From an uncultured virus (IMG/VR IMGVR_UViG_3300025530_000008) (lineage: Duplodnaviria > Heunggongvirae > Uroviricota > Caudoviricetes > Herelleviridae), in IMG/VR virus record IMGVR_UViG_3300025530_000008: DNA of 20,000 nt. One strand, given 5' to 3'. Of the stretch, positions 2 to 19,848 are shown piece after piece. Both the position numbers and the translations under genes were made by a program. The first letter of the stretch is position 1. Each line of letters begins with the position of its first letter. The notes under the pieces are model-generated. The model was not told where the DNA came from, made no database searches, and worked only from the letters and a program-made list of their open reading frames with translations.

Positions 2-3000
2 ACGAGCTGGGGACTCACCCCGGATGTGCTGGAGATGCGACCGACGCGCATCGTCTACGGCCGGAGCCGGGAAGACATCCTGAAGTCGCTCGAGCCGCAT
101 GAATACGTCGGCAGCTTCGTTACGTTCGAAGACGGCGAAGTCGCTGCGCAGGTAACGGAGCTCACGCTGCCTGAAGGTCACGAACTTCGGAAGGCCTTTA
201 TGGACACGCTTCAGAAGGCCATGTTCCCGCACAAGGGAGCATCCAACGCCGAGATCAACAAGAAGGCGCAGGAATACGTACGGGCCAATAAACAGCGGTA
301 CGCCAGTCTGGCGGACCAGCAACTGGGACGTATCCGGGGAAAAGGCGGTAGCCTCACATGGTCTGAAGAACTTCTTCTGAAGAACCCGGGAAGCGCGTGG
401 ATCACGTGGGGCGGTAAACGCATCCTGATTAACACCGGGAACGGTGAGATCATATACGACTCCCGGAATGAGGCACACCGCGAGGACTACAACCAAGGGG
501 CGCAGGAAGACAAGATCGAGTTCCACCACGAGAAGGAAGCCGGCGTCAGTGAGGAAAACGCTCACGAGCACGACCACGGCATCCAAGCCTTCCGAAACGA
601 GTTCATGAACCGCATGCGGGACGAGTGGATCAAGAAGGAAGGCAACAAGATTGTCGGCGGAATAAAGGGAGAGTTTTTGCAACACAACTCGCACAAGGCA
701 CTGGACGTGTACCGCGACCTTTCGGATGAGGAACGGAAGGCACTTGATGACATGGGCGCCGACCGCGAGGCGAAAGCGGCGTTCCTCGGCGACCACTTCC
801 TGCGTAAAGAGGGCGTCATCGAAGCGCTCCAGCAATACCGGAACGGCGAGCTTTCGGAAGAAGACATTCGGCAGCGGCTGGCCGGTCTGGGGTCGCTGGC
901 GGGACGCAACTCGAAGATGATGGCTTCGTTCCTCGGCGACGTGAAGAAGCACGACCCGGCGACGGAGGAAGGGCTTAAGAAGCTGGCCGAATCGTTCGGT
1001 GCGAAAGAAATGACTCGTGCTGGCGAAGAAGCGAGCAAGAACCTTCTGCCGGAGGGCAAATACATGATTGGCAACCCGATTACGGGCAAAACCATGATTG
1101 TACACGTTGGCGGTGCCTTCACCGGCGGCCGCGGCAGCCGGAAGAAGGACGAGTCCGGCAAAGAGGAAAAAGGGAAGTACACTTCCGAAGTTCTCGAAGC
1201 GTTCGACCCGGATGGCCGCATCCATGAGACGATCAACACGTGGGGCGATCTCGGCCGGGCACTCGGCTACACGGGCAAAGAGGCAAGCGACCTGAAGGCG
1301 ACGCTGGTGGCACACGCCAACACGGCGCCGGATAAGCCGTTCATGCAGAAAATTTCGGATGAGGAATTCGCCCAGCACCGGGCGAAGACGAAAGCCGGGC
1401 TTCAGGAGTCCATGCTTCATAAAGATTTCCGGCTGGTCGACCAGACCCGGGACAAGGACGGCAACATCACGAGCCAGACCTTTGCTCAGAAGATGCCGGA
1501 CGGCACCATGAACCACATCACGGTCGACGGCAGCGGCCGGATTACGGACCCGCTGATGCGACGCCTGCTCAACCAGCGCGCACCGGTGACGAACGAGAAG
1601 GAACTGAACGAACTTCTGAAGAACGCGGTCGGCAACCGGGTATGGGTGACGGCACACTTCGGAAGCGACATCCACATCGGAGACGCGCTGGGCCATCACG
1701 TGCAACTGGAGTATGACGGAAAAGGCGCGCCGCGGGTAGTCGGCGGAAAGTACGACGGCTATCGGTACGTTGACCGCCGCGACATTCCGAAAGGCGCAAT
1801 CGACCCGGCAACGGGCGAGCCGGTAAAAGCGCTGTTCCGCAACGGCCGATTGGTTGATCGTCGATTTACGACGAAAAATGACGTGCCGATGCGGGAAGGT
1901 AATCCGGTCATGTACAGGGACGGCGACAGCTACAAGAAGGGCCGCATCTACTCCATCGAGGGCGACAACTACAAGATCACGGATGGCCAAGGGCACGTCA
2001 TCGGCATTTTCAAGAAGGAAGACCTGAAGCCGGCGAAGCAGGAAGGTCGCATGCTTTCGGAAGCCGGAACGGCCGTGCTGAAGGTAGCTCAGACCGGTAC
2101 GCACCGCTTGAACGTACAGGAAGCACTGGCTGACATGTCGAAGGGCCGCCGGAAGCTGCTTGAAGAAGCCCTTCAGAGGGCACACATCCAGCGCGCAGCA
2201 TTCGACTCCGACGGTAACCTTCGGAACGAGCTGGAGCTGTCGGATGCAGCGCACAAGCGGCTGAGCAAAATCCTCGGCCGGTCGAAAGCCGGACGGGAAA
2301 TCCTGTCGAAGTTCAACAGCGCCTACACGAAAGAACTGGAGCTGCATGTGCCGGAGCGCCTGCGGAGCGTGGTCGAAGCGGAAGGCGTCCGGGTGCTGGC
2401 AGACGGCACGGCGCGCATTTCGGCATCGAAGTTCGAACAACTTCGGGATGTGCTGAACAACGCCGGCAGCGGCATTTCGCTGACCTATCAAGCGCAGGAG
2501 CATTTGGCGGATCACTTCGCCCGCAAAGATCGTGTTCCGAAGGAAGTCAGCGAGCTGCGGAAGAAGTATCAGCCGTCGACGATTGAATCCGGCGACAAGG
2601 AATTCGACAAGCACTACAAGGCGCAGTTCAACGAGAAGTCGTACCTGATGGACCCGTCAAAAGGTCTGTACGGCACGCAGCTTGACGGCGTCTCGCACCT
2701 CATCGAGCGCGGCCGGGGCATTGCCGGCCACGGCATGGGTACGGGTAAGACGATCCTCGGCGTGGTTGCCGGCCTGCATACGAAAGCGCAGGCGCTTGCT
2801 CGGGGCGAGAAACCGAAGAAGACGCTTATCGTGGCGCCGAAGGGCATCATGTCGGACTGGGGCAAGGAAATCGCCACGCACACCAACAGCAAGGCGCTCT
2901 ATATCGGTGGCGCAAGCAGCTTCGCCGGAGCGAAGCGCGGCGAGGACGGTAAGCGCTACTGGGGCCAAGCCGGCACGGAGCAGGAAGCTGTCGACATTCG

Positions 3001-4897
3001 GAAGTTCAAGAAAGGCTCGCACGCCGGTCAAGATCACGACTTCCATATCGTCAGCTACGACACGTTCATGCGGAACCGCGACTTCTTCGCCAACAGCGGC
3101 GAGTACGACAACATCGTCATCGACGAAGTCCACGCCTTCAAGAACCAGAAAGGCAAGCGCGGCGCCGCGCTGGCGGAGACGACGGACAAGTTCAAGAACG
3201 TGTGGGGCCTGTCAGGTACGCCGATGGAGAATGATCCGCGTGAGATGCACGCATTGGTCGACACCATCACCGGCGGCCGGCACGAGCTCGGAAGCCTGCG
3301 GGAGTTCCAGAACAAGTACATGATGAAGGACCGCAACGGCAAGCTGGTCGGCATCAAGCCGAGCATGGCGGAAAAGCTGGGCGACATTCTGGCATCCATA
3401 GTGCAGTTCCGAAGCGGCGAGGACGTAACCTACAACGACGGCAGCAAGATTCGCTTCCCGCATCTGGTTGGTCAGCAATCGAATGATCCGGGACAGAATC
3501 CGAGTCCTCCGGTCGACTTCATCGGTGACATGGTCGACCGCAGCCGCGACCACCAGACGACGGATTACTACGGCACGAAGCACTCGATTACCGATTTCGA
3601 AACCAGTACGAAGCAGGTTACCAACGCGAAAAGCGGCGAAACCTACGAGGTCACCACGACGACGCCGAAGAATGTATCGCCGGAGCTGGCGGCCATGTAT
3701 GATACGTACAAGTCACTTGAAGCGAAGTACCTGCCAGCATCGAAGCTTAACGAGCTGGCGTCTGCGGCCGCAACAGGCATCGATCAAGGCCAGAAAGGTC
3801 AGTCGAACTACCTGACGGCCATGCAGAAGCTTCAGAAGTTCCTGAATGCACCGCTGGCGCACAAGATGTATGTCGAAGGCGGAAACGCAATCGATTCCGA
3901 CGCAACGGATGCGCAGGCGGAAAAGCCGGCGAAGGGTGGCGCCTCCGGTCTGGTCGAAGGCAAGCACTACATCGTCGACGAGAACGGCTTCAAGCGCTAC
4001 TTTGAAAGCGACGGCAAGGGCGGTTACCTGCGTAACCCGGACGGCAGCCCGAAGCTGCTGCCGCCGCTGCACAAGCAGAATCCGAAAGCGCAGTACCTGC
4101 AAGACCGGATTCACAAGTATCTGGATTCGCTCATGTTGGAGAACCGCCGTCGGGTAGCCCGCGGCGATAAGCCGCTGGTGCCGAAGGTTGTCGTGAAGTC
4201 GAACTACACGACGTTCGGCACAGACATCGTCGACAACGTGCTGAAGGAAGTCCGTAACACGCACCCGATCTTCGCCGAACTGGCGCGGCAGGGTTACACG
4301 AACTTGACCCACGGACAGTTCACCGGTGAAGCGAAGGACCGGGAAGAAACAAAGAGCGGCTTCCGCGGCAACAAGCACGACTACCTGAATAATCAGGGCA
4401 ACCTGTGGGCCACGACGGTTTCGCCGGCCGGTAAAGAAGGCGTTGACTTCGGAAACGCGCATCTGATGATCCACTACGATCAAGACTGGAACCCGCAGAA
4501 GATGGCGCAGTTTACGGCGCGCGTCCGGCGGTCGGACTCGGCGAAGACGCACGAGCAGGTCGGCCGGGCGAATGCGGTTCGGGTCGAATCGCTGCACGTT
4601 CCGAATACGGTCGAGGACTTCATCTTCAACGCGCAAGACGCGAAGATGCGTGCGATTCAGCACGTTGTCCAAAGCACCCGGGATGCAGAGGCCTTCCCGA
4701 AGCTCGGTGAAACCGAAGGCACGGTCGGTTACGGTGCCCGCGGATTCACCAGTCGCAAGCAGCCGCGTCAGCCGGTTGCACCGGCACGACCGGATAAAGC
4801 GCCGAGCATTCCAAAGCCCGGAAGCGGCGGAGCTGAAGTTCGGAAGCCCATGTTGGCGAGTGCTGACAAAGCACTGAAGTTAGTGGTACTCTTGTAG
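2..4897 (+). CDS. Giant multidomain protein with C-terminal SNF2/SWI2-family (SF2) ATPase/helicase; 5'-truncated; candidate virion-packaged (DarB-like) protein
   Basis: The frame is open from base 2, so the true start lies upstream. SF2 motifs: I GHGMGTGKT (~2726-2752), Ia LIVAPKGIMSDW, II VIDEVH (~3116-3133), III LSGTPMEN, V SPAGKEGVDF, DQDWNP, and a divergent VI QFTARVRR. A possible SH3/KOW-like segment lies at ~1890-2030. The ORF ends with tandem TAG TAG. Confidence 0.85.
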   Translation, partial: TSWGLTPDVLEMRPTRIVYGRSREDILKSLEPHEYVGSFVTFEDGEVAAQVTELTLPEGHELRKAFMDTLQKAMFPHKGASNAEINKKAQEYVRANKQRYASLADQQLGRIRGKGGSLTWSEELLLKNPGSAWITWGGKRILINTGNGEIIYDSRNEAHREDYNQGAQEDKIEFHHEKEAGVSEENAHEHDHGIQAFRNEFMNRMRDEWIKKEGNKIVGGIKGEFLQHNSHKALDVYRDLSDEERKALDDMGADREAKAAFLGDHFLRKEGVIEALQQYRNGELSEEDIRQRLAGLGSLAGRNSKMMASFLGDVKKHDPATEEGLKKLAESFGAKEMTRAGEEASKNLLPEGKYMIGNPITGKTMIVHVGGAFTGGRGSRKKDESGKEEKGKYTSEVLEAFDPDGRIHETINTWGDLGRALGYTGKEASDLKATLVAHANTAPDKPFMQKISDEEFAQHRAKTKAGLQESMLHKDFRLVDQTRDKDGNITSQTFAQKMPDGTMNHITVDGSGRITDPLMRRLLNQRAPVTNEKELNELLKNAVGNRVWVTAHFGSDIHIGDALGHHVQLEYDGKGAPRVVGGKYDGYRYVDRRDIPKGAIDPATGEPVKALFRNGRLVDRRFTTKNDVPMREGNPVMYRDGDSYKKGRIYSIEGDNYKITDGQGHVIGIFKKEDLKPAKQEGRMLSEAGTAVLKVAQTGTHRLNVQEALADMSKGRRKLLEEALQRAHIQRAAFDSDGNLRNELELSDAAHKRLSKILGRSKAGREILSKFNSAYTKELELHVPERLRSVVEAEGVRVLADGTARISASKFEQLRDVLNNAGSGISLTYQAQEHLADHFARKDRVPKEVSELRKKYQPSTIESGDKEFDKHYKAQFNEKSYLMDPSKGLYGTQLDGVSHLIERGRGIAGHGMGTGKTILGVVAGLHTKAQALARGEKPKKTLIVAPKGIMSDWGKEIATHTNSKALYIGGASSFAGAKRGEDGKRYWGQAGTEQEAVDIRKFKKGSHAGQDHDFHIVSYDTFMRNRDFFANSGEYDNIVIDEVHAFKNQKGKRGAALAETTDKFKNVWGLSGTPMENDPREMHALVDTITGGRHELGSLREFQNKYMMKDRNGKLVGIKPSMAEKLGDILASIVQFRSGEDVTYNDGSKIRFPHLVGQQSNDPGQNPSPPVDFIGDMVDRSRDHQTTDYYGTKHSITDFETSTKQVTNAKSGETYEVTTTTPKNVSPELAAMYDTYKSLEAKYLPASKLNELASAAATGIDQGQKGQSNYLTAMQKLQKFLNAPLAHKMYVEGGNAIDSDATDAQAEKPAKGGASGLVEGKHYIVDENGFKRYFESDGKGGYLRNPDGSPKLLPPLHKQNPKAQYLQDRIHKYLDSLMLENRRRVARGDKPLVPKVVVKSNYTTFGTDIVDNVLKEVRNTHPIFAELARQGYTNLTHGQFTGEAKDREETKSGFRGNKHDYLNNQGNLWATTVSPAGKEGVDFGNAHLMIHYDQDWNPQKMAQFTARVRRSDSAKTHEQVGRANAVRVESLHVPNTVEDFIFNAQDAKMRAIQHVVQSTRDAEAFPKLGETEGTVGYGARGFTSRKQPRQPVAPARPDKAPSIPKPGSGGAEVRKPMLASADKALKLVVLL

Positions 4898-4902
4898 TAG
4901 CA

Positions 4903-4930: not shown

Positions 4931-4948
4931 AAGGGAGGGGGTAGGTAA

Positions 4949-5203
4949 GTGGCGGACCGGATGTTCGATACGGACTCATTTCTGGATGAGATTCAGACAC
5001 CGGAAGAAGCAAAAGCCTGCGTGGATTTCCTGACCGCGAACGAACGAATCTTCCGAAGACAGCTTATGGACGAGGGCCTGTCGCATGAGCAGGAAGAACA
5101 GGAAGTAAAGGCGGTCTGGACGAATCTCATCAAGGCCTGCCGCCGGGTCGGCTACAAAGACCCGTGGGTGGATGAGAAGGCAAAACGATACGGTGTAGGG
5201 TAA
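4949..5203 (+). CDS. Small acidic helical hypothetical protein (84 aa)
   Basis: GTG start after a G-rich SD region (AAGGGAGGGGGTAGG). Its stop overlaps the next SD (TAAGGAGG). Confidence 0.75.
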   Translation: MADRMFDTDSFLDEIQTPEEAKACVDFLTANERIFRRQLMDEGLSHEQEEQEVKAVWTNLIKACRRVGYKDPWVDEKAKRYGVG

Positions 5204-5216: not shown

Positions 5217-5417
5217 GTGGTAAAATGCGAAGGCTGCGGGCGGATCATTCTTGACCAGACTTCGGAGGGATGGAAGCTGCGCACACGAATGCTGCTGTTC
5301 GAGCGCGGCGGTGCGTATGCGATATGTCCGTCTTGCAAGAAGGAAGTCAAGGTGCCTGTCGTATTGAACGATCCACCGCCCGCACTTCCGAAGACGAAAT
5401 TGTTGGTGAAAATTTGA
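5217..5417 (+). CDS. Small zinc-ribbon protein (CxxC...CxxC, 66 aa); architecture reminiscent of Mu Com-like regulators
   Basis: SD TAAGGAGGT at 5201-5209, GTG start, CEGC and CPSC motifs. Confidence 0.8.
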   Translation: MVKCEGCGRIILDQTSEGWKLRTRMLLFERGGAYAICPSCKKEVKVPVVLNDPPPALPKTKLLVKI

Positions 5418-5427
5418 AACAATATTA

Positions 5428-5456
5428 TTGACTAACTTCCGAAGTGGAAGTATATT
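5428..5456 (+). promoter_or_regulatory. Sigma-A/sigma-70-type promoter upstream of the structured RNA and head operon
   Basis: TTGACT (5428-5433), a 17-bp spacer, then TATATT (5451-5456). An AT-rich UP-like tract at 5409-5427 stands out in otherwise GC-rich DNA. The spacer contains CTTCCGAAG. Confidence 0.8.
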
Positions 5457-5623: not shown

Positions 5624-7237
5624 ATGCGTTCCACGCTGGAAAACAACGACACTTACCATCTGTGGGTGCCCATTGAAGACGCCGACCTGATGAAGTCGGT
5701 CGAAGTCGATGAAAATGGCGACTGGATTGTTCGCGGCGTCATGACATCCGACGACAAGGACGAGGAAAACGACGTTATCAGCCCTGAAGGTATGGATTGC
5801 TCGTACTTCCTCGAGAAAGGCTGGATCAAATACGAGCACGGCAACAATCCGAACCAGTTCATCGGCGAACCGATCGCCGTCAAGGTAGGGCGCTTCAAGC
5901 ATCCGACACTCGACAAGTCGGTCAACGGCGTCTATGTCGAAGGCAGGCTGTACCGTAACCGCGAGCTTGCAAAGCAGGCCGTTCAAACGATCGAAGACCT
6001 TCAGAAGTCGAACACCAAACGGCGGATGGGTTGGTCGATCGAGGGCAGCGTGCGCGAGCGGTGCCGAAAGACCGGCAAAATCGTGAAATCCGTTCTTCGG
6101 AACGTGGTACTTACGATGAATCCGGTAAATACAATGACGTGGGTCGAACTGGCGAAGTCCTTCGCTAAAAACCACGAACTGACGATCGACATGCCGATGG
6201 ACAAGTCTCTTGACACCGGCGAAATGGCGGAAGTGACGCCGCAGTCGGTCGAGGGCGGGAGCAAGAAAGCTGTTCCCGAAGTAAGCGACGAGGCATGGAG
6301 CCGTCTTCTGCGCGCTTTCGTTGAAAGCGACGAAGACGATATCCATAAATCCGTGGACTCGCCGGGAAGTTTGGCCATGAAGGCCTTCGCCTTTGCCAAA
6401 CTGAAAGGCTTCAACTACGACGACGCCTACACTTTCGGTGCGTTCGTCAAGCAAAACCACGGGAAAATTCGGCTCTTAATCAAGAGCCATGGGGGTGAGA
6501 CGATGAGCAAGCAAACGGGTGTGCTCGACACGGCGCTGGAGGAACTGGAGAAGGCGCTGGACATCGAAGCTGTGCAGGACGAGGACGAGCTGCTGAAATC
6601 GCAATCTTCCGAAGATGACGAGGAAGATTACGAGGACGACAGCGAGGACTACGAAGACGCCGACGAGGACAGTGACGAGGACAGCGACGAGGACAGCGAC
6701 GAGGACAGCGACGAGGACAGCGACGAGGAAGGCGACGGCGAAGGTTTTGCGAAGTCCTTCAGCAAGGACAGCACGGTGCAGCAAGCGCTGGAAGTCTCGG
6801 ACTTCCTGTCCAGACTCGTCGACGAAGTCGGCTACTCGATCGACACCGTGAACAAGTCCCTGAGCAGCGTAAGCCGTCAGCAAAGCGCACTTCTGAAGGC
6901 ATTCAAGGCCGTTGGCGAACAGCTCCGCGACCTTGCGGAAGAAAACGCTGAGCTGAAGAAATCCTTCGAAGAACTGCTGAATCGTCCGATCGGGCGCCGC
7001 GGCGTAACGTCGACGCGGGAAGTCCAAACCATCACGAAGGGCTTCAATCTGGGTCCGCAGCCGATGGAAGGCAAGCTGACGAGAGCGAGAGTGCTCGCCG
7101 AGCTGAATAAATCGTTCGAAGCCGGCAACTACAGCCTCGGCGAAGAAATCATGCGCTACGAGGCGGGTGTTCCGCTCGAGAACTTGAACCTTCCGCACGA
7201 GCTGCGCGTGAAGTTCGGCCTCGCATCGGCTGAATAA
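5624..7237 (+). CDS. Prohead protease fused to an acidic scaffold-like domain (537 aa)
   Basis: The ATG at 5624 follows SD AAAGGTAGGTGAT and is preferred over the track's 5579 start. Herpes/HK97-type protease signatures: D-x-E-N-D, IKYEH, GWSIEG and VVLTMNPVN. The C-terminal half is acidic/coiled-coil, and the gene lies directly before the capsid gene. Confidence 0.85.
   Translation: MRSTLENNDTYHLWVPIEDADLMKSVEVDENGDWIVRGVMTSDDKDEENDVISPEGMDCSYFLEKGWIKYEHGNNPNQFIGEPIAVKVGRFKHPTLDKSVNGVYVEGRLYRNRELAKQAVQTIEDLQKSNTKRRMGWSIEGSVRERCRKTGKIVKSVLRNVVLTMNPVNTMTWVELAKSFAKNHELTIDMPMDKSLDTGEMAEVTPQSVEGGSKKAVPEVSDEAWSRLLRAFVESDEDDIHKSVDSPGSLAMKAFAFAKLKGFNYDDAYTFGAFVKQNHGKIRLLIKSHGGETMSKQTGVLDTALEELEKALDIEAVQDEDELLKSQSSEDDEEDYEDDSEDYEDADEDSDEDSDEDSDEDSDEDSDEEGDGEGFAKSFSKDSTVQQALEVSDFLSRLVDEVGYSIDTVNKSLSSVSRQQSALLKAFKAVGEQLRDLAEENAELKKSFEELLNRPIGRRGVTSTREVQTITKGFNLGPQPMEGKLTRARVLAELNKSFEAGNYSLGEEIMRYEAGVPLENLNLPHELRVKFGLASAE
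6503..7237 (+). CDS. Putative nested in-frame scaffolding protein (244 aa) from an internal start
   Basis: Strong SD GGGGGTGA (6491-6498) shortly before an in-frame ATG at 6503 (MSKQTGVLDTALEELEKAL...). Confidence 0.65.
   Translation: MSKQTGVLDTALEELEKALDIEAVQDEDELLKSQSSEDDEEDYEDDSEDYEDADEDSDEDSDEDSDEDSDEDSDEEGDGEGFAKSFSKDSTVQQALEVSDFLSRLVDEVGYSIDTVNKSLSSVSRQQSALLKAFKAVGEQLRDLAEENAELKKSFEELLNRPIGRRGVTSTREVQTITKGFNLGPQPMEGKLTRARVLAELNKSFEAGNYSLGEEIMRYEAGVPLENLNLPHELRVKFGLASAE
6662..6727 (+). repeat. 12-bp tandem repeat GACGAGGACAGY x5 encoding (DEDS)n in the scaffold
   Basis: Directly visible in the sequence. Confidence 0.95.
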
Positions 7238-11383: not shown

Positions 11384-12231
11384 GCCTACTGACGATCTCC
11401 GCCGAGCTTCCGAATCTGGATACGATCATTTCGAATCTGGAATCGGCGGGCTCGAGCGGGCAAAAGCTCCCTTTTACCAAAGAGGCCATACGAGCAGCCA
11501 CGGTCGATGTCATTCAGCGCACGTGGATTCAGTACGCATCCGGCGCTTACGTCACGTACAGCGGTGGAAGCTTCCGCATCAACGTGGTGACCGGCGAATA
11601 TGTCCGCAGCATTCAGGACGGCGTTCGTTTTCCGAACGACCTGACGGGTGAAGTGTTCACGACCAGCCCGCACGGTGAGTCTATTGAGAAGGGGCAGCGC
11701 CCGCGGGATATGAAGCAAGCGCTGCTGTCCTCGCCGAAAGCGAAGAAGGGCAAGAACGGAAGCCGGTACATCACGATTCCGTTCCGGCACGGAACGCCCG
11801 GCGCGACGACAATTCCGGCTATGCCCCGGGCCGTTTATAACGCTGCCCGGCGGCTCGGCTACACCCGGCGGGAGCAGGGGTTGACTGGAGACGCCCGTGT
11901 TTATGTTTGGGGCGGACGGTACAGTCAGGGTGTGGAGCGCGACGCACAGTACGGCATGCGGACGCACATCGGCGCTCACCCGGGGGCCGGCTATCAGCAC
12001 AAAAGCGGTATCTATGAGGGCATGGTTCGCATGGGACGGCCGGGGCATTCGCAGTACATGACCTTCCGAAGGGTGTCGGATAAGTCCGACCCGCGGAGCT
12101 GGATGCATCCCGGAACGCCGCCGCGCCCGATCCGCGAAGCGGTTGTCGAGAATACGAAGGAAGAAGTGCTTCAGCTCATCCGGCGCGGATTCGAAATGGA
12201 CCTTTACTTTATGGGATTGGGGGGAAGCTGA
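11380..12231 (+). CDS. Basic neck/tail-completion protein (283 aa)
   Basis: ATGA overlap with the upstream gene. Motifs KKGKNGSRYITIPFRH and YMTFRRVSDKSDPRSWMHPG; synteny. Confidence 0.7.
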   Translation: MSLLTISAELPNLDTIISNLESAGSSGQKLPFTKEAIRAATVDVIQRTWIQYASGAYVTYSGGSFRINVVTGEYVRSIQDGVRFPNDLTGEVFTTSPHGESIEKGQRPRDMKQALLSSPKAKKGKNGSRYITIPFRHGTPGATTIPAMPRAVYNAARRLGYTRREQGLTGDARVYVWGGRYSQGVERDAQYGMRTHIGAHPGAGYQHKSGIYEGMVRMGRPGHSQYMTFRRVSDKSDPRSWMHPGTPPRPIREAVVENTKEEVLQLIRRGFEMDLYFMGLGGS

Positions 12232-12787: not shown

Positions 12788-13108
12788 ATGAGTAAGCGGA
12801 GCACGAAGACGCAGAAGGGCCAACAGCGCAAGGCTGTACAGGAGCCTGTAGCCGCAGAACTTCCGAAGGCGGAAGACAGCCCTCAGCCTTCCGAAGTGAA
12901 CGGAGGCGGGAGTAAATTAGCGTCGACGCAAGCTTCGGAAGACTGTAAAATTACGTTTGAAGGGTACTTGCGGCGGGTATCGGTACGCCCCGGACTGGTC
13001 GCAAGCTTCAAGGCGGAGGCTGCCAACACTCCGGGCGCGCTGGACCCGAAAACAGCGGAGGAATGGGCCGCAGCCTTCGAAAAGCAAGCAAAACGGGTGT
13101 ATCCGTAA
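12788..13108 (+). CDS. Hypothetical protein (106 aa) preceding the sheath gene
   Basis: SD AAGGAGG at 12772-12778 favours ATG 12788 over 12779. Disordered N-half and helical C-half. Confidence 0.65.
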   Translation: MSKRSTKTQKGQQRKAVQEPVAAELPKAEDSPQPSEVNGGGSKLASTQASEDCKITFEGYLRRVSVRPGLVASFKAEAANTPGALDPKTAEEWAAAFEKQAKRVYP

Positions 13109-13132: not shown

Positions 13133-14521
13133 ATGGCAATCAACATCTCGTTTGGCGGAACGACCATCCAGCGCCCGGGTGCTTTTGCGATTGTGGATAC
13201 AGCGAACATGGTTCCGGTCTCGCTGGGCGCACTCCGCAGTTTGGCCGTAATCGGCGTGATGGATGAGTCCGCCTCGCTGGCGCCGGGTCGTGCCTACGCC
13301 TTCACGGAGCCTTCCGAAGCGCGTAAAGCGCTGACGCAGGGCGAGCTGCTGGATGTGATGTACACCGCATGGCAGCATGGCGCCAACCTGATCTACGTTG
13401 TGCCGGTAAACAAACCGGTAGCCGCCAGCATCACGCTGAAGGACAACGACGAAGAATCCCCGGCCGATGTACTGAAGCTGACGGCACGTGCCCATGGCAC
13501 GAAAGGCAACGGCATCACGGTGGAAGTCGCAAACAACGACCTTATCGTGGCGTTCGACGGGAGGTCGGAGTCCTACGATGCGACGAAGACGGTTGAAGAA
13601 CTTGCAGCACTCGTCAACGCCAGCAGCGCGCTCGTAACGGCTGAAGTGGTTGGTTCCGGTACCGCAGTTCTCGGCACGCTGGCCGAAACGAATCTGTCGG
13701 GTGGCGGCGCAGGCGCACCGGTCACGGACAGCGACTGGGAAGAAGCGCTGGAAGTGCTCGAGCAGATCGAAGTGGACGGCCTGATCCCGGTCACGACAGC
13801 ACAAGCCATTCAGGCGAAGGTCGATGCGCATGTACAGGCTATGTCGAACATCCACAACCGCCGTCGTCGCCGGGCATTCTACGGCCACGCTGTAGGCGAG
13901 TCCATTGAAAACATCAAGAATCTTGCTGCTGCGCTGAATAACGAACGCGCGCTGCTGGCCACGCCTTGTCCGATGGTAGCGGACTCCAGCGGCAACCGAG
14001 TAACGAAGCCGTCGTACTACACGGCAGCGGCCGTAGCCGGTATTTGGTCCGGTCAAGAGCCGCAGGAGCCTGTTACCTATAAGGCGGTCAAGTTCGCAGG
14101 GCTCGAGAAGCAGTACAAGCCGACGGAAATCGTCGAACTTCTGAATGCGCACGTCTGCGTCGTCGAAGTGGTGAAGAACGGCGGATACCGGATCGTGCAG
14201 GGCATTACGACTTCGTCCTCGGCCGACCTGACGCAAGCTGAACTGTCGGTATCGACGCTGAAGGACATTATGTCCGAAAATCTTGAAACGCACTTCGAGA
14301 ACAAGTACGTCGGCAAAGCTGGCGTCCGCGGCGTCGAAATCACGATGTACAACGATCTGGTATCGATGCTGGAGCAGTTCGTATCGAGCGGCCTGATTGC
14401 CGGATACGTTGCGGATTCCGTCAAAGTCACGCGGAACGGTACGACGTTTAATCTGGAATGGCAGGGCACGCCGACGCTCCCGATCAACAACTTCCTCATC
14501 ACGACCAGCCTGACCCTGTAA
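13133..14521 (+). CDS. Contractile tail sheath protein (462 aa)
   Basis: SD AAAGGAGGG. N-terminal FGGTTIQRPG; ARAHGTKGNGITVEV, NLSGG, AAAVAG...EPVTYK and YRIVQGITT are sheath-type motifs. Confidence 0.9.
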   Translation: MAINISFGGTTIQRPGAFAIVDTANMVPVSLGALRSLAVIGVMDESASLAPGRAYAFTEPSEARKALTQGELLDVMYTAWQHGANLIYVVPVNKPVAASITLKDNDEESPADVLKLTARAHGTKGNGITVEVANNDLIVAFDGRSESYDATKTVEELAALVNASSALVTAEVVGSGTAVLGTLAETNLSGGGAGAPVTDSDWEEALEVLEQIEVDGLIPVTTAQAIQAKVDAHVQAMSNIHNRRRRRAFYGHAVGESIENIKNLAAALNNERALLATPCPMVADSSGNRVTKPSYYTAAAVAGIWSGQEPQEPVTYKAVKFAGLEKQYKPTEIVELLNAHVCVVEVVKNGGYRIVQGITTSSSADLTQAELSVSTLKDIMSENLETHFENKYVGKAGVRGVEITMYNDLVSMLEQFVSSGLIAGYVADSVKVTRNGTTFNLEWQGTPTLPINNFLITTSLTL

Positions 14522-15002: not shown

Positions 15003-15023
15003 CGATCAATCTTCCGAAGACCG

Positions 15024-15060: not shown

Positions 15061-15077
15061 AATTGGAGAGAAATCAT

Positions 15078-15596
15078 ATGAAAGGGATGGTAAAGGTGAA
15101 AAACGAGGTTTATCAAGAAAACATGGAGAAGGTCAAGGCGCTCATGGAGGCCCAAAAGAACGTTCAGCTCGCCGGAAACCTTCGGAAGACGGTACATATC
15201 GACTTCACATCTCCCGAAGGCAACACGTACAAAGGCGACGTGACGTTCAAGCGCCTTACGGTAGGCGACATGCTGCGCGTGGAAGCGCTCGTGGCTGAGT
15301 ACTTCCGAAAGGCGGGCGTGACCGACATCCGCTTCATCGACGAGAATGCGAAGTTCCACGCGCGTGTCATGGCAACGCTCCGCGTCGCTATGGTGGATAT
15401 GCCGGACTGGCTGCGCGACATGGAAAAGTTGACGGAAATTGAGATCATCTACCATGTGTACGGCCAGTACCGTAACTGGGAGGACTCCTTTCTCGTCCGA
15501 AGTGCAGCAACTGCTTCCGATGATGGTTCGGATTCCGAAGGAGCGGAAGCTTTGGATGCTTCGGAAGCATCTGTACGGGGGAATTCCGCCGACTGA
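15078..15596 (+). CDS. Tail assembly chaperone (short form)
   Basis: Lies between the tube and tape measure genes. SD GGAGAG precedes ATG 15078, although the exact start is uncertain. Contains the PDWL...YGQYRNWEDSF pattern. Confidence 0.75.
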   Translation: MKGMVKVKNEVYQENMEKVKALMEAQKNVQLAGNLRKTVHIDFTSPEGNTYKGDVTFKRLTVGDMLRVEALVAEYFRKAGVTDIRFIDENAKFHARVMATLRVAMVDMPDWLRDMEKLTEIEIIYHVYGQYRNWEDSFLVRSAATASDDGSDSEGAEALDASEASVRGNSAD

Positions 15597-15813: not shown

Positions 15814-15852
15814 AGCTGGCGCCTTCCCAGTCCCTTGCAGGGGGTGTTCTCC

Positions 15853-18800
15853 GTGGAGCAATCGATTCGCGTCTCGGCACGCGGCGACTTCGGACAGCTA
15901 ACACGCGGTCTTAAGCAACTGCGAAGCGATTTGAAAAATGTCACGGATGAACTGAGCCGGGGCGCACGAGGGGGAGGCGTGTTCGACGAGTCTCGTCTTC
16001 GTGCGCTCGATTTATTCCGGCGCCGGTTTGTCTCCACGCTTCGAGAGATCGACCGCGAGTTCGAGAAGCAGAATCAGATCATCGACGAACTTCATCGGTC
16101 CATGAGCCGGGCGCAGGCGTCCGAGCGCGACGCGATCCGGCGCACGATTCAGGAGCGCGAACGGCAGCTCGATGTGATCCGCAGGCAGGTTATGGAGGCC
16201 GAGCGGCTGTACGAGCTTCAAATGCGCCAGCTCCGCGCGGGGTCGTCGCCGCAAGCAACGGCACGGGGCGGATCATCTATTGGCGTCCCTATGCCGGGTA
16301 CGCCGCAGTACACACGCCTTCAAGAAGGAATCAAGACCCTTCGGAAGGACTTGCAAACGATCGTCACGGAAGTCAACCGTGGCGCTCGGCGCGGTGGTGT
16401 GTTCAGCGAAGAAAACCTGCGCGCATTGGATATCTTCAAAAACCGCTTCCGGTCGACAATGGAGGCCATCGATGCGGAGTTCCAGCGGCACAATGATGCA
16501 CTGGACCGCCTCTATGAGCGCATGGAGCGTGCGCAGGAGGACGAGCGCGAGGAAATACGCAAGACGATTCAGGAGCGCGAGAAAGAGCTGGACGTGCTGC
16601 GGCAGCAGCTCTATATTATCGAGCGCATTTACAAAGAGCGAACTTCGGAAGCTTCCAGCTTTTCGATGAAGACCGCTGGCGTAGACGCCGGCCAGCTTAA
16701 TGAAGCCTCCGAAAACAGCCTGTTCGGACGGATGCTCCGGTCGCAGCTCCTGCGGCGCGGTATCGGCTTCGGAAGGTCCGCGCTGGCGCTCGCCGGCATC
16801 GGCGGAATCGGCGCTATTCTGTCACAGGCCTATCAAGCTGCGTATGCCCGGGAAGTCGAGTCGCTTGACCTTGCGCAGCGTCTCCGCGGGTACGCCGGAA
16901 GGTCCGGCAGCGCGTCGAGCATGTATGCCGCTGCTGCGGCGATTGGCCGCCGTGACCGGATGGGTTACACGGCGCAGGAAAGCTGGCAGTTCCTTGATCA
17001 GTATTCCCGACTGGCCGGCGCCCTCAGCGCTGAGCAGCAGTACGGCCTCATGCGCTTCGGAAGGGCCTACGGCCTGTCGCTGGGTGAAGTGGCCGGGCTC
17101 GTCGGCGCAAACGTACAGGCGGGCGGCGTAACGTCCCCGAAAGAGTTCGCCGATGCCATTGCCGGCAGCGTGGCTACGTCCGGCATGACGCCGCGTATTG
17201 TTGAAGTCATGGAAGCCAATAACGCACTGCTTCAGCAAATGAACACGACGCTGAAGGACGGCAGCGCGCGGCAGCTTCTGGCCTACCAGACGACGCTCGA
17301 CCGCATCGGTCTGTCTCAGGGCATGACCCAACTTACGGGTGCGCAGGGCGCCAGCCTGATTGCAGGTCTCGGCGGCATCTTCACACCCGACAACGATAAG
17401 TGGAAATGGATGGGAATCCGAGCCCTTCAGGCATATAATCCCGAAAAATACGGGAACATGGACCTGTTCGATCTTGAGATGGCCTTTGAGGATGGCCTGC
17501 TTAACCCAGACAACATTCCGGCTATGTCCTCGTATATCCGAAGCATCGTCGGAAACAACGAACCGCTCGCCAAACGCATCATGCAGCGCTGGCTTACGGA
17601 AGGCGGCTACGCGGCAACAAAGCGTGAGGCTTCCGAGTTTTACGACGCGACGCAAGGGCTCCGGGTGTTTGATGAAGCACAGATGGCCGCGCTCCGCGAC
17701 GGTATGATCGACTCCGGGGAGAAGTACGCTGAGCGCATGGACCAGACAGGGCAGGAGATTCTGGATGTCAACGCCCGCTACCTGAGCGCGCTTGAAGGCG
17801 TCGGCGGCGAGTTTATCGGCGTCATCAACACGCTGAAAGATGTTGTCACCACGGGTGTCGAAAGCCTGAACCAGTTCGCCGATGCGGTGGATGCTGCGGT
17901 GGATTCGCTAAAAGCCCCGAACTGGATGAAGGAAGCCGGTATGAACGCCATGGACTTCATCGAAGACAACCCGTGGGCCATCATCGGCGGCGCTATGGCC
18001 GGCAAAGGGATCGCCAATATGATGCGCCGCCGGCAGGCCGGCCGGGCGGGTGCAGCCGGAGCAGGCAGGGCGTCCGGCATCATACCCAAAACGCCGAAGG
18101 CCTCGTCCCTGCTGCGGGGAGCTGGCATCCTCGGTGCCGGTATCGGGCTCTATGAGATCATCCGCAACTGGGACAGCATCACGCCCGGTACCGATTACTG
18201 GGAGTACAACCTTCTGGACACCGTCATGCCGGGTGCATCTTCGATTCTGGGTGGAAACCCAAGCACGCGGCGTGTCATCATGCCGGAAGAAATCGACGCT
18301 ATGCGTGCCAAACGACAGGGGCTGGAGTATGTCGATAAGATTACACCCCAGCAGGTAGAAGGGCTTAGGTCATGGATGGCGCAGCAGAAGGAGAAGGCAA
18401 ACGCCGCCGGCGACTCGCTCATCGGCCGCATGACCGAAGAAGACTACCGCCGGTTTACGTCGATGCCCCGGGATGTTACCGAAGACTTCGGAAGGCTGTC
18501 GGAAGCCGGCCAGACCTTCTACTCGGACACGCGCCGGGAGCACCGCGACAGACTCCTTCAGATTTACAACGAGCACCGCGGGCTGCGTGATCTGTTCTCC
18601 GGCATGTTCGGCCCGGTTATCGAAGGCTTCCGCTTTATGATCGGCTACGCCAGCCAGATTCTTAACGGATCGATGGCGTCTACATCCGCCGGCGCGCTCA
18701 CCAGCGCAGCGTTTGATGTGCGCAGCGGCATCGGAAGTGTGACCGCAGCGCAGCTTAACGCGCAACTGGGTGGCGTACTGTCCGGCCGCGGTGCGGAATT

Positions 18801-19848
18801 TATTGCGGCCGGCCAGCGGTACGGCATAAACCCGGCATTTCTTGCAGCGGTCGCCATGCACGAGACCGGCAACGGTACGTCGGCTGCTGCCCGGCTCAAG
18901 AACAATGTCGGCGGCATGATGGGCAAGAACGGCTTGATGACCTTCGGAAGCATTTCAGAAGGCATCGACGCCATGGCGCGGAATCTCTACCGCAACTACA
19001 TCTCGCAGGGACTTACGACCGTTGAGGATATTCAGCGGAAGTATGCGCCCATCGGTGCGGCCAACGACCCGAACAACCTGAATTCGAACTGGACCCGCGG
19101 CGTTTATGCCTACATGAACCGCCTCGGCGTATCCACGCCGACGCCGGCGCGTGCTGGCGGGTTCTTCTCCGGCTGGGAGTCCCGTGTAACGTCTCGCTTC
19201 GGAAGCTTCGAATCGTTCCGATCGAAGCCGCACGGCGGGCTCGATATCAAAGGCGCACAGGGCGACCCTATCGAAGCACTGGCAGGCGGCAAAGTCGCAT
19301 TCATTTACTACGACGACGGCAGCAAGCTGGACTCCGACGGAAAGGCCAACACCCGCGCCGGAGGTACGGAAGTCGGCATCCAGATGCCGGACGGCAGCAT
19401 CTACTACTATAGCCACCTGTCGAAGGTCAATCCGAACCTGAAAGTCGGGCAGGAGATCAATGCCGGCGACTACATCGGAAACGTCGGCGGCACGCCGGGC
19501 AAGCCGGGAAGCGGCAGCTCGACAACCGGAGCGCACCTGCATCTGGGCTACATGAACGCTGCCGGCGAGCTGATGAATCCCGAGCAGCTTCTGAGGCAGC
19601 TCAATATCGGCGATTCCGACATTGGTCGGTTCATGTCGCAAATGCCGCTGCAGAACCGCGAGCAACTGTCCGCATCGTCGTCGCGCAAGGTCGAGGTTTC
19701 GATCGACATCAACATTACCGGCGAAGGGGCGCAATCGTTGAACAGCATGACAGAGCAGCAGCTTCGCCGCATGATCCAAAAGATCATGCAGGAAAGCAAG
19801 CTTACGCAACTTCTGCAATCTCCGACGAGGGTGGGGTATAGCGGATGA
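15853..19848 (+). CDS. Tape measure protein with C-terminal GH73/glucosaminidase-like and M23 peptidase domains (1331 aa)
   Basis: SD AGGGGGTG before GTG 15853. Long helical Ala/Gly-rich body. YGINPAFLAAVAMHETGNG...NNVGG...KYAP (~18740-19110) is lysozyme-like GH73. HGGLDI, YSHL and TGAHLHLG (~19180-19600) are the M23 HxxxD/HxH motifs. Confidence 0.88.
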   Translation: MEQSIRVSARGDFGQLTRGLKQLRSDLKNVTDELSRGARGGGVFDESRLRALDLFRRRFVSTLREIDREFEKQNQIIDELHRSMSRAQASERDAIRRTIQERERQLDVIRRQVMEAERLYELQMRQLRAGSSPQATARGGSSIGVPMPGTPQYTRLQEGIKTLRKDLQTIVTEVNRGARRGGVFSEENLRALDIFKNRFRSTMEAIDAEFQRHNDALDRLYERMERAQEDEREEIRKTIQEREKELDVLRQQLYIIERIYKERTSEASSFSMKTAGVDAGQLNEASENSLFGRMLRSQLLRRGIGFGRSALALAGIGGIGAILSQAYQAAYAREVESLDLAQRLRGYAGRSGSASSMYAAAAAIGRRDRMGYTAQESWQFLDQYSRLAGALSAEQQYGLMRFGRAYGLSLGEVAGLVGANVQAGGVTSPKEFADAIAGSVATSGMTPRIVEVMEANNALLQQMNTTLKDGSARQLLAYQTTLDRIGLSQGMTQLTGAQGASLIAGLGGIFTPDNDKWKWMGIRALQAYNPEKYGNMDLFDLEMAFEDGLLNPDNIPAMSSYIRSIVGNNEPLAKRIMQRWLTEGGYAATKREASEFYDATQGLRVFDEAQMAALRDGMIDSGEKYAERMDQTGQEILDVNARYLSALEGVGGEFIGVINTLKDVVTTGVESLNQFADAVDAAVDSLKAPNWMKEAGMNAMDFIEDNPWAIIGGAMAGKGIANMMRRRQAGRAGAAGAGRASGIIPKTPKASSLLRGAGILGAGIGLYEIIRNWDSITPGTDYWEYNLLDTVMPGASSILGGNPSTRRVIMPEEIDAMRAKRQGLEYVDKITPQQVEGLRSWMAQQKEKANAAGDSLIGRMTEEDYRRFTSMPRDVTEDFGRLSEAGQTFYSDTRREHRDRLLQIYNEHRGLRDLFSGMFGPVIEGFRFMIGYASQILNGSMASTSAGALTSAAFDVRSGIGSVTAAQLNAQLGGVLSGRGAEFIAAGQRYGINPAFLAAVAMHETGNGTSAAARLKNNVGGMMGKNGLMTFGSISEGIDAMARNLYRNYISQGLTTVEDIQRKYAPIGAANDPNNLNSNWTRGVYAYMNRLGVSTPTPARAGGFFSGWESRVTSRFGSFESFRSKPHGGLDIKGAQGDPIEALAGGKVAFIYYDDGSKLDSDGKANTRAGGTEVGIQMPDGSIYYYSHLSKVNPNLKVGQEINAGDYIGNVGGTPGKPGSGSSTTGAHLHLGYMNAAGELMNPEQLLRQLNIGDSDIGRFMSQMPLQNREQLSASSSRKVEVSIDINITGEGAQSLNSMTEQQLRRMIQKIMQESKLTQLLQSPTRVGYSG

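What the first reader, a model, noticed from the sequence alone, without database searches (positions are those of the whole stretch)
185..19205. Highly iterated palindrome CTTCNGAAG written through the whole module
Seen: ~25 exact CTTC[C/G]GAAG copies by hand count. There are also at least 9 CTTC[A/T]GAAG copies (209, 374, 1613, 3830, 5999, 6890, 7340, 9162, 11037) and many one-mismatch variants. A simple base-composition estimate at ~60% GC gives about 0.2 expected C/G-centre copies per 20 kb, so enrichment is on the order of 100-fold. The motif is read in all three frames (LRK/LPK, TSE/ASE, FGS/FRR) and occurs in intergenic DNA (5436, 15011), so it is not a peptide repeat. Several copies have extended arms (ATCTTCCGAAGAT at 6604, ATGCTTCGGAAGCAT at 15556). 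Inference: a DNA-level code overlaid on the genes. Candidates are binding sites for a dimeric protein (repressor/stoperator-like, nucleoid or packaging organiser, or loading sites for the SNF2 motor), a modification target, or a HIP1-like iterated palindrome.
Basis: partly seen in the sequence, partly recalled or inferred. Interest (0 to 1): 0.85.

Follow-up and report, generated by a model that had tools for sequence, protein, structure and literature searches.

The report
Phage genome saturated with CTTCSGAAG palindrome
A clade of ~100-kb tailed phages (probably of Paenibacillus-like bacteria) has written the 9-letter symmetric DNA word CTTC(C/G)GAAG into its genome about every 600-800 bases, bending its own proteins to fit it and building it into promoters, which marks it as the docking site of a still unidentified DNA-reading protein.

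Summary
The window holds 25 CTTCSGAAG and 9 CTTCWGAAG copies, against 0.23 and 0.13 expected. The excess survives amino-acid-preserving codon shuffling.

It is genome-wide in four complete relatives of 94-107 kb, with 133-191 sites each. It is absent from a sister phage and a Paenibacillus provirus. None of the 602 rows for sampled Bacilli genomes shows enrichment.

The word is sharp: 9 bp, strict 1-bp spacing, centre S far above W, and no flank information. It fills 73-83% of all synonymous opportunities and has tripled the peptides that permit it. It is kept at orthologous places in 80% of cases, against 15% for control words.

It sits in the spacer of a conserved sigma-A-type promoter before the head genes in all four phages. 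It also abuts a second promoter class and piles up just after stop codons.

Three of the four phages have no hit to either DNA-methyltransferase family tested.

Best reading: an array of sites for a phage-encoded, two-fold symmetric dsDNA reader that at least controls transcription.

This scan has noted similar phage-wide palindromes on other DNA. My literature searches found no published phage case.

The parts
185..193 (.). CTTCGGAAG, in giant SNF2 gene (26-4897), frame 0, LRK
209..217 (.). CTTCAGAAG (W centre), SNF2 gene, frame 0, LQK
374..382 (.). CTTCTGAAG (W), SNF2 gene, frame 0, LLK
1182..1190 (.). CTTCCGAAG, SNF2 gene, frame 1, TSEV
1613..1621 (.). CTTCTGAAG (W), SNF2 gene, frame 0
1657..1665 (.). 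CTTCGGAAG, SNF2 gene, frame 2, HFGS
3830..3838 (.). CTTCAGAAG (W), SNF2 gene, frame 0
5050..5058 (.). CTTCCGAAG in ORF 4949-5203, frame 2
5217..5417 (+). 66-aa CxxC...CxxC zinc-ribbon ORF. Conserved in the four motif-bearing phages and absent from the motif-less sister. One of the candidate readers or regulators. Holds site 5385.
5385..5393 (.). CTTCCGAAG inside the 66-aa ORF (LPK)
5428..5456 (+). Best sigma-70-type promoter match of the window (TTGACT, 17 nt, TATATT; 10 of 12), before the prohead protease/head genes. The motif fills spacer positions 3-11. The same layout occurs in all four motif-bearing phages.
5436..5444 (.). CTTCCGAAG, intergenic, operator-like copy in the promoter spacer
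5999..6007 (.). CTTCAGAAG (W), protease/scaffold gene 5579-7237
6606..6614 (.). CTTCCGAAG, protease/scaffold gene, frame 1, SSED
6890..6898 (.). CTTCTGAAG (W), protease/scaffold gene
7340..7348 (.). CTTCAGAAG (W), major capsid gene 7271-8776
8418..8426 (.). CTTCCGAAG, major capsid gene, frame 1, ASEA
9162..9170 (.). CTTCAGAAG (W), ORF 8865-9422
9440..9448 (.). CTTCCGAAG, ORF 9426-9698, frame 2
11037..11045 (.). CTTCTGAAG (W), ORF 10628-11383, frame 1
11294..11302 (.). CTTCCGAAG, ORF 10628-11383, frame 0
12063..12071 (.). CTTCCGAAG, ORF 11380-12231, frame 2
12860..12868 (.). CTTCCGAAG, ORF 12779-13108, frame 0
12888..12896 (.). CTTCCGAAG, ORF 12779-13108, frame 1
12933..12941 (.). CTTCGGAAG, ORF 12779-13108, frame 1
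13311..13319 (.). CTTCCGAAG, tail sheath gene 13133-14521
15011..15019 (.). CTTCCGAAG, intergenic, 9 nt after the stop of gene 14565-15002. An example of the after-stop class.
15180..15188 (.). CTTCGGAAG, tail chaperone gene 15063-15596
15559..15567 (.). CTTCGGAAG, tail chaperone gene
16339..16347 (.). CTTCGGAAG, tape-measure gene 15835-19848
16643..16651 (.). CTTCGGAAG, tape-measure gene
16767..16775 (.). CTTCGGAAG, tape-measure gene
17055..17063 (.). CTTCGGAAG, tape-measure gene
18486..18494 (.). CTTCGGAAG, tape-measure gene
18942..18950 (.). CTTCGGAAG, tape-measure gene
19197..19205 (.). CTTCGGAAG, tape-measure gene

Best explanation
CTTCSGAAG is the recognition word of a sequence-specific reader of double-stranded DNA with two-fold symmetry.

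Selection keeps one site about every 550-780 bp over the whole genome.

At a few conserved places the word is part of promoters. It lies in the spacer of the sigma-A-type promoter before the head genes. It also lies directly upstream of a second promoter class.

I infer that the many intragenic and after-stop copies act through the same bound protein. They would be genome-wide roadblocks or a silencing coat, comparable to stoperators or KorB operator sites.

Shown: the DNA-level selection, the sharpness and symmetry of the word, its restriction to one clade, and the promoter placement.

Inferred: that a protein binds, that it is phage-encoded, and what the bulk array does.
For: Excess and DNA-level origin:
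- About 100-fold excess in the window. Whole-genome counts are 134, 161, 191 and 133 sites, against 5-21 for the reversed control word.
- The excess survives codon shuffling.
- The centre is S in 163 of 172 frame-1 sites, although TCW makes up 18-48% of TCN codons.

Symmetry and sharpness:
- Half-site spacing is strictly 1 bp: 134 copies against 8 or fewer for other spacings in G001.
- Inner positions are invariant and mirror each other.
- Flanks carry no information.

Strength of selection:
- 91 of 124, 112 of 135, 113 of 141 and 109 of 144 synonymous opportunities are filled. The motif-less relatives fill 1 of 43 and 0 of 19.
- Permissive peptides are 3.4-3.6 times residue-shuffle expectation.
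- At orthologous places with the same amino acids, 154 of 192 sites are kept, against 14980 of 97172 control words.

Link to transcription:
- The motif sits at a fixed offset in the TTGAC...-10 spacer before the protease gene in 4 of 4 phages. This is the best promoter match of the window.
- It is directly upstream of the TAGAAT..CCTGTGTAT promoter class in 3 of 6 cases and 4 of 5 cases.
- Intergenic copies within 30 nt after a stop number 50, against 20.5 expected.

Specificity that drifts with lineage:
- W centres are tolerated in G001 and G003.
- The G004 lineage has no W centres but does carry the gapless CTTCGAAG.

Not a host signature.

Unrelated viral contigs use longer palindromes with the same core in classic operator or iteron arrays. 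This shows the core can serve as a protein site.
Against: - No reader is identified.
- The clade-specific gene list rests on a single evolutionary contrast, and the sister record is only 83% complete. The list holds an SprT-like zincin with a C-terminal HTH, its two neighbours, a 66-aa zinc ribbon, a 108-aa winged-helix-like ORF, a DnaQ-like exonuclease and a small protein.
- The one candidate I modelled as a possible dimer looks like the RNA-polymerase epsilon / T7 Gp2 fold, not a DNA binder. The other model matched nothing.
- About 84% of sites are inside genes, far from promoters. A repressor model does not need 130-190 sites.
- No integrase was found and no recognisable immunity repressor. 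Lysogeny is only hinted at by ParM-, TubZ- and coupling-protein-like genes, which differ between the phages.
- Promoters are consensus matches only.
- HTH dimers usually need half-sites about 10 bp apart, not 5 (my own knowledge).
- Gene calls are from my own crude script.
Confidence: 0.45

Rival explanations
1. A HIP1-like structural signal. The word is read by a nucleoid, condensation or packaging protein that organises the phage chromosome. The promoter copies are incidental.
For: The statistics match HIP1: 15- to 300-fold excess and conservation within and between ORFs (abstract of PMC5861425). Spread is even over core and accessory genes, at 1.26-1.77 and 0.96-1.29 sites per kb. Close pairs are fewer than Poisson in 3 of 4 genomes. 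The phages encode an HU-like protein.
Against: The fixed offset in a conserved promoter spacer in 4 of 4 phages, and adjacency to a second promoter class, are hard to call incidental. The HU-like gene is also in the motif-less sister phage. Long gaps are not avoided.
Confidence: 0.2
2. A self-mark. The word tags phage DNA so that a nuclease or helicase-nuclease (phage or host), or a patrolling protease, spares or services it. Host DNA, with about 1 site per 25-200 kb, goes untagged. This follows Chi-like logic.
For: There is a 25- to 200-fold density contrast with all 602 sampled genome rows. Per-site selection is strong enough to change proteins. Clade-specific genes include an SprT-like protease with an HTH and a DnaQ-like exonuclease.
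Against: Known Chi sites are asymmetric and are enriched in the host, which is not seen here. Nothing links the nuclease genes to the word. The promoter placement is not predicted by this model.
Confidence: 0.12
3. A modification target or repair-driven word. A methyltransferase (with a Vsr-type repair bias) or another modifying enzyme acts on the central CpG-bearing word, and the excess follows from that.
For: Enzyme-like sharpness of the word. S-centred copies and the G004 8-mer all carry a central CG. G004 alone has an N6/N4 methyltransferase.
Against: No PF01555 or PF00145 match in six frames of G001-G003. No methylase among the Pfam hits of G001. One-mismatch neighbours are not depleted in the way a conversion drive predicts. 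W-centred copies without CG are also enriched, with 27 in G001 against 1.9 expected. Other methylase families and host enzymes were not tested.
Confidence: 0.08
4. A host-factor site or host-wide signature that the phage copies, for example a host regulator, Chi or an uptake signal.
For: Phages of GC 45-58% share the word. This could reflect one conserved host protein.
Against: In the 401 genomes listed for the family of a related provirus's host, the maximum is 272 per 6.9 Mb. The count is mostly below the reversed control. In the 201 genomes listed for its class, the maximum is 0.048 per kb. The sister phage and Paenibacillus proviruses lack the word. The true host is unknown, so this rival is not excluded.
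Confidence: 0.07
5. A peptide-level, codon-bias or RNA-level effect.
For: Eight of the 9 W-centred copies in the window are in frame 0 as LQK or LLK. All genes are on one strand, so the word is also in the mRNA.
Against: Codon shuffling does not reproduce the excess. All frames and intergenic DNA are used, with intergenic density the higher at 1.9-3.1 against 1.2-1.6 per kb. Perfect two-fold symmetry and equal use of C and G centres fit duplex DNA, not RNA. A 4-bp stem with a 1-nt loop cannot fold.
Confidence: 0.02

Closest known systems
HIP1 (GCGATCGC), the highly iterated palindrome of cyanobacteria
   Same: A short exact palindrome about 1 per kb and 15- to 300-fold over chance. It lies inside and between genes and is conserved by selection. 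Its reader and function are unknown (abstract of PMC5861425).
   Different: HIP1 marks a cellular chromosome and carries a methylated core. Here the word belongs to one phage clade and is absent from the sampled candidate hosts. It has an odd length with an S centre. It is built into promoters. Three of the four phages have no hit to either methylase family tested.
Operators and stoperators of Cluster A mycobacteriophages (L5 repressor)
   Same: One repressor word is repeated across the phage genome, in promoters and in short intergenic spaces, stopping initiation and elongation (passages of PMC9283540). Here there are promoter-spacer copies and a pile-up just after stop codons.
   Different: Stoperators are asymmetric 13-mers read by a monomer. 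They number somewhat more than twenty per genome and are oriented with transcription. Here the word is a 9-bp palindrome with 133-191 copies, about 84% of them inside genes. No repressor or integrase was found.
KorB (ParB-family) operator sites of plasmid RK2
   Same: Dispersed palindromic operators are read by one global silencer that acts near and far from promoters (abstract of PMC11790492). That the KorB operator is a 13-bp palindrome with an S centre, present in 12 copies, is recalled and not read here.
   Different: RK2 has a dozen sites, not 130-190. The only ParB-like domain here sits in a giant head-block protein that the motif-less sister phage also has.
Other phage-wide iterated palindromes noted by this scan (AGTACT, TTASTAA, TTCCGGAA)
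   Same: The same kind of excess, also written into proteins, with an unknown reader (notes). I confirmed one 110-kb record with 155 TTCCGGAA against 0 for the control.
   Different: That record is only a distant relative: capsid 38% identical, and 8-13 proteins of each motif-bearing phage find a match in it. It shares 0 of 30 mapped site positions and none of the candidate genes. The word has therefore arisen independently.

Membership tests
HIP1-type highly iterated palindrome | Short exact palindrome at least 15-fold over-represented genome-wide | tested here: met
   25 against 0.23 in the window. 133-191 per genome against 5-21 for the control.
HIP1-type highly iterated palindrome | Present in coding DNA in all frames and in non-coding DNA, and conserved beyond background | tested here: met
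   Frames. 154 of 192 sites kept against 15.4% for control words.
HIP1-type highly iterated palindrome | Signature of the cellular chromosome of a lineage | tested here: not met
   No enrichment in the 401 + 201 genome rows sampled. The word is restricted to one phage clade.
HIP1-type highly iterated palindrome | Core is a methylation site with a cognate methyltransferase | tested here: inconclusive
   PF01555 is found only in G004 and PF00145 in none. Other families, host enzymes and actual methylation were not tested.
Stoperator/operator array of a phage immunity repressor | The same word in promoters and in short intergenic spaces across the genome | tested here: met
   Promoter spacer in 4 of 4 phages. 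After-stop excess of 50 against 20.5.
Stoperator/operator array of a phage immunity repressor | Asymmetric site, oriented with transcription, read by a monomer | tested here: not met
   The word is a perfect palindrome. The choice of centre base follows coding constraints.
Stoperator/operator array of a phage immunity repressor | Cognate repressor gene and temperate life style | tested here: inconclusive
   No integrase and no recognised repressor. ParM-, TubZ- and coupling-protein-like genes differ between the phages.
ParB/KorB-type dispersed operator system | ParB-family CTPase with an HTH as reader | tested here: inconclusive
   A ParB-like nuclease domain sits in a 1189-aa head-block protein. 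The motif-less G005 has a homologue of that protein (38%). No binding test is possible with these tools.
Chi-like or uptake-signal-like host word | Enriched in the host chromosome | tested here: not met
   Maximum of 0.04-0.05 per kb in the 602 rows for sampled Bacilli genomes, against 1.1-1.4 per kb in the phages. The exact host is unknown.
Restriction-modification target | Palindrome avoided by the phage | tested here: not met
   This word is enriched, while classic 6-mers are purged: GGATCC 0 against 40 expected and CAGCTG 0 against 46 in G001.

The most novel reading that the evidence does not exclude
The word is a phage-invented 'self' tag. A phage protein, for example the clade-specific SprT-like protease with a C-terminal HTH, docks on it every ~700 bp. 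From there it would strip host proteins from the phage DNA, or halt a DNA-degrading machine. Phage DNA is serviced or spared while the nearly word-free host chromosome is not. This would be a Chi-like self/non-self code owned by a virus.
Probability: 0.12. Interest if true: 0.95.

Novelty: new variant of a known kind. Interest (0 to 1): 0.78.

Why it matters
Highly iterated palindromes have been a puzzle in cyanobacteria for decades because their reader is unknown and the genomes are large.

Here the same phenomenon sits in a ~100-kb phage genome and offers three advantages:
- a motif-less sister phage for comparison;
- a short list of clade-specific genes;
- copies wired into conserved promoters.

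If the array silences or marks a whole viral genome through 130-190 sites, it would be a new scale of sequence-directed genome control in phages.

It also shows that a DNA word can reshape a viral proteome. Permissive peptides are tripled.

Tried and rejected
- Max-order Markov ranking of k-mers was uninformative, because sub-words of the motif are enriched too.
- Megablast of the window against named phages found nothing. The nearest named capsids are Herelleviridae at 33-38% identity.
- The run of G centres in the tape-measure gene looked like a strand switch. It is not repeated in relatives and follows the reading frame.
- The top words of G005 are a 24-bp peptide tandem repeat and a coding-strand word (CAGAGGCT, 33:8). 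They are not a counterpart palindrome.
- The small protein between the terminase genes is a fused tandem pair in G001, so I tested it as a possible dimeric reader. Its model resembles RNA-polymerase epsilon (YkzG) and T7 Gp2, with weak E-values.
- The model of the 107-aa neighbour of the SprT-HTH gene matched no fold.
- Pfam and NCBIfam scans of the small candidates gave nothing above threshold.
- I tested whether the 110-kb TTCCGGAA phage keeps variant words at our positions. It kept 0 of 30.
- All sequencing runs that hold the phage are kept as contigs, so read ends or nicks at the word could not be examined.
- Rfam and tRNA scans were empty.
- Complex prediction was not used, because no protein pair is claimed to bind.

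Full report
**Observation**

The window holds exactly 25 CTTCSGAAG copies, against 0.23 expected and at most 3 in 200 dinucleotide shuffles. It also holds exactly the nine listed CTTCWGAAG copies, against 0.13 expected.

The window is the head-to-tail block of a myovirus. All genes lie on the + strand: a giant SNF2 protein, prohead protease/scaffold, major capsid, sheath, tube, chaperones and tape measure.

Shuffling synonymous codons within each of 16 genes 1000 times gives 4.3 S copies (maximum 9), against 25 observed. Three of the 4.3 are unshuffled sites. For W copies it gives 0.68, against 9 observed.

**Extent**

The window's own assembly is not held. The nearest record, G001, is 94,044 bp, and the window corresponds to about 9811-29810 of it. 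G001 has 134 sites, against 5 for the reversed control word.

Relatives found through the capsid protein fall into two groups:
- G002, G003 and G004 are complete, 99-107 kb, GC 45-55%, capsid 72-78% identical. They have 161, 191 and 133 sites, against 11-21 for the control.
- G005 is 80 kb, 83% complete, GC 40%, capsid 67% identical. It shares the replication and structural genes at 43-67% identity but has 2 sites.
- A provirus, G006, has none.

Further fragments found through the terminase and the SprT-like gene behave the same way. Every fragment close to the four phages carries the word, and every G005-like fragment lacks it.

No gapped 4+4 palindrome of any kind is comparably enriched in G005 or G006.

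**Anatomy of the word**

- CTTCCGAAG and CTTCGGAAG are by far the commonest 9-mers.
- Half-site spacing is strictly 1 bp. In G001 there are 134 copies, against 3-8 for spacings 0 and 2-6.
- Single changes at positions 2-4 and 6-8 occur at or below Markov expectation. Positions 1 and 9 tolerate some change.
- S-centred against W-centred copies number 107:27, 145:16, 151:40 and 127:6.
- Flanks carry no information.
- In frame 1 the centre is the free third base of a Ser codon. There, W is found in 2 of 37, 0 of 47, 4 of 40 and 1 of 48 sites, although TCW is 18-48% of TCN codons. The S preference is therefore a DNA-level rule.
- W copies sit mostly in frame 0, where the amino acid fixes the centre.
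- The G004 lineage differs. It has almost no W centres, but the gapless CTTCGAAG occurs 68 times, against 2-13 expected. Secondary preferences thus drift with lineage, as expected for a co-evolving reader.

**Strength and mode of maintenance**

- Of all peptide contexts that allow the S-centred word by codon choice, 73-83% carry it: 91 of 124, 112 of 135, 113 of 141 and 109 of 144. The figures are 1 of 43 in G005 and 0 of 19 in G006.
- Those permissive peptides are themselves 3.4-3.6 times commoner than in residue shuffles, for example 124 against 36.8 with a maximum of 59. In G006 they are not (19 against 23.1), and in G005 only mildly (43 against 26.8). The word has therefore changed the proteins.
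- Orthologues between the four phages average about 50% amino-acid identity. Over 12 ordered genome pairs, a site whose amino acids are unchanged is kept in 154 of 192 cases. The figure for control 9-mers is 14,980 of 97,172, or 15%.
- Most losses (472) are where the amino acids differ. In 42 cases the site survives an amino-acid change, and 94 fall in gaps.
- Genes private to one genome still have 0.96-1.29 sites per kb, against 1.26-1.77 in core genes.
- Spacing is near-random (CV 0.72-1.0). Close pairs are fewer than Poisson in three of four genomes, and long gaps are not avoided.

**Not a host signature, as far as sampled**

- The endolysin has an SLH domain and the holin is A118-like.
- The only cellular relatives of the capsid are proviruses in three Paenibacillus genomes.
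- Those three genomes have 135, 47 and 48 CTTCNGAAG copies in about 6 Mb, below the reversed control.
- In the 401 genomes listed for that family, the maximum is 272 per 6.9 Mb, or 0.04 per kb.
- In the 201 genomes listed for the class, the maximum is 0.048 per kb.
- The phages have 1.1-1.4 S copies per kb.
- The true host is unknown, so this test is by sample.

The phages purge classic 6-bp palindromes at the same time: GGATCC 0 against 40, CAGCTG 0 against 46 and TCCGGA 2 against 66 in G001. They face ordinary restriction pressure and are not generally modified.

**Link to transcription**

- The best sigma-70-type match in the window (TTGACT, 17 nt, TATATT; 5428-5456) has the word at 5436-5444 in its spacer.
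- The same layout stands before the prohead protease gene in all four phages: TTGAC, 2-3 nt, the word, 6-8 nt, then a -10 hexamer. G005 has a promoter there without the word.
- G003 and G004 each have two more promoters of this layout.
- A second conserved element looks like a phage-specific promoter: TAGAAT, about 17 nt, CCTGTGTATRGT, on the coding strand only. The word lies 0-5 nt upstream of it in 3 of 6 cases in G001 and 4 of 5 in G002.
- G002-G004 encode sigma factors.
- Intergenic density is 1.9-3.1 per kb, against 1.2-1.6 in genes.
- Intergenic copies concentrate in the first 30 nt after a stop codon: 11, 14, 16 and 9, against 3.0, 5.8, 6.6 and 5.1 expected.

**Who reads it?**

No methyltransferase of PF01555 or PF00145 is present in six frames of G001-G003. 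G004 alone has one. No integrase was found.

Genes present in all four phages and absent from G005:
- an SprT-like zincin with a Cys cluster and a C-terminal Fis/TyrR-type HTH;
- its two downstream neighbours, of 107 aa and 204 aa, the latter with a Cys-rich end;
- a 66-aa zinc ribbon (window 5217-5417);
- a 108-aa winged-helix-like ORF in the portal block;
- a 117-aa and a 114-aa ORF;
- a DnaQ-like exonuclease;
- a small protein between the terminase genes.

The small protein is a fused tandem pair in G001. Its model (pLDDT 81) resembles RNA-polymerase epsilon (YkzG) and T7 Gp2, so it is more likely an RNA-polymerase binder. The 107-aa protein folds confidently (pLDDT 88) but matches nothing.

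The recognition helix of the SprT-HTH protein differs most in G003 and G004, the two lineages with the most deviant secondary site preferences. This is suggestive only.

All of this rests on one evolutionary contrast, and G005 is incomplete.

**Life style**

G001 and G002 have a ParM-like actin with a small partner on the opposite strand. G003 has a tubulin. G002 and G004 have a coupling-protein-like ATPase, and G004 also a replication-relaxation protein. These hint at plasmid-like persistence, but they differ between the phages and prove nothing.

**Context elsewhere**

A scan of viral contigs for two copies of the word within 9-39 nt found members of this clade. It also found unrelated contigs that use longer palindromes with the same core in classic arrays:
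- six copies of a double 15-bp palindrome in a GC-60% contig;
- roughly 21-bp-spaced iterons of a 17-bp palindrome beside an integrase gene.

The core can therefore serve as a protein site, with other proteins.

Earlier notes of this scan describe phage-wide palindromes on other DNA. I confirmed one 110-kb record with 155 TTCCGGAA against 0 for the control. It is only distantly related: capsid 38% identical, none of the candidate genes present, and 0 of 30 mapped positions shared. Such words thus arise independently in phages.

**Literature**

- A search for the word itself gave only primers and unrelated uses (listing).
- Searches for iterated or over-represented palindromes in phages gave only cyanobacterial HIP1 papers and no phage case (listings).
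- For HIP1 I read the abstract and outline of PMC5861425.
- For stoperators I read passages of PMC9283540.
- For KorB I read the abstract of PMC11790492.

**Verdict**

The most likely mechanism is an array of sites for a symmetric, phage-encoded dsDNA reader that acts as an operator at conserved promoters. By inference it also acts as a genome-wide roadblock or coat.

My confidence that a reader protein exists is about 0.8. My confidence in the transcriptional role of the bulk array is about 0.4.

The phage is seen in contigs of bioreactor, compost, phyllosphere and soil runs from 17 studies, some of them RNA libraries. It is therefore not an assembly artefact.

Noticed in passing
window 9220-9314 and 9330-9373: Two perfect 9-bp tandem repeats inside ORF 8865-9422: AAGCTGCTG x10.6 and GCAGCACCG x4.9. 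The ORF has weak coiled-coil-type Pfam hits. This is a peptide repeat unrelated to the palindrome.
   Followed up: partly
window 6610-6737: 21-bp and 12-bp tandem repeats (CGACGAGGACAG x6.4) in the protease/scaffold gene. They encode an acidic peptide repeat.
   Followed up: no
window 5457-5578: The ~120-nt leader between the promoter and the protease gene carries blocks conserved in all four motif-bearing phages (GGGCAACGAAGTCCA ... AGGACAGCCCAAGAC) and an inverted repeat. They are not seen in G005. There is no Rfam match.
   Followed up: partly
G001-G004 whole records (L003-L007, L024-L040): Complete purging of several 6-bp palindromes: GGATCC 0 against 40, CAGCTG 0 against 46 and TCCGGA 2 against 66 in G001, and seven words at 0 in G003. 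G005 has no TTCGAA at all in 80 kb.
   Followed up: partly
G001 42930-42990, 68405-68870 (L005, L006); G002 5671, 43046-44480: A conserved promoter-like element on the coding strand only: TAGAAT, about 17 nt, CCTGTGTATRGT, followed by GTGAA..GAGGG. It is probably read by a phage sigma factor.
   Followed up: partly
L007:8321-8791 (G001): The small protein between the terminase genes is a fused tandem duplication in G001 and a single ~80-aa unit in the relatives. The model resembles RNA-polymerase epsilon / T7 Gp2.
   Followed up: partly
L044:15618-18352 (G005) and L026 (G002): The large terminase gene is split. In G005 an HNH endonuclease ORF lies between the two halves. In G002 only the C-terminal part is one ORF.
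   Followed up: no
L163 629-11172: An unrelated GC-60% viral contig has six dispersed copies of a 33-bp element. Each is made of two 15-bp palindromes (AGACTTCSGAAGTCT) 3 nt apart.
   Followed up: partly
L096 6001-6364; L103 2281-2512; L156 6001-6231: Unrelated contigs have iteron arrays of ATTTCTTCSGAAGAAAT at about 21-bp spacing. In L096 and L103 the array lies between a tyrosine-integrase-like gene and a small basic protein.
   Followed up: partly
G595 (L330-L335): A 110-kb, GC-67% phage with 155 TTCCGGAA against 0 for the control. It is only distantly related to this clade.
   Followed up: partly
G005 (L041-L045): The word CAGAGGCT occurs 41 times against 4 expected, 33 of them on the coding strand. 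It looks like a codon or peptide effect, not a palindrome.
   Followed up: partly
G002, G004 whole records: AAAGGAGCTGGTA occurs about 20-27 times per genome. It is probably a fixed ribosome-binding-site context before start codons.
   Followed up: no
G001 4415-14707 (window 26-4897 is part): Two giant proteins lie between the portal and the protease. One is 1189 aa, with LPD1 and a ParB-like nuclease. The other is 2203 aa, with SNF2.
   Followed up: no
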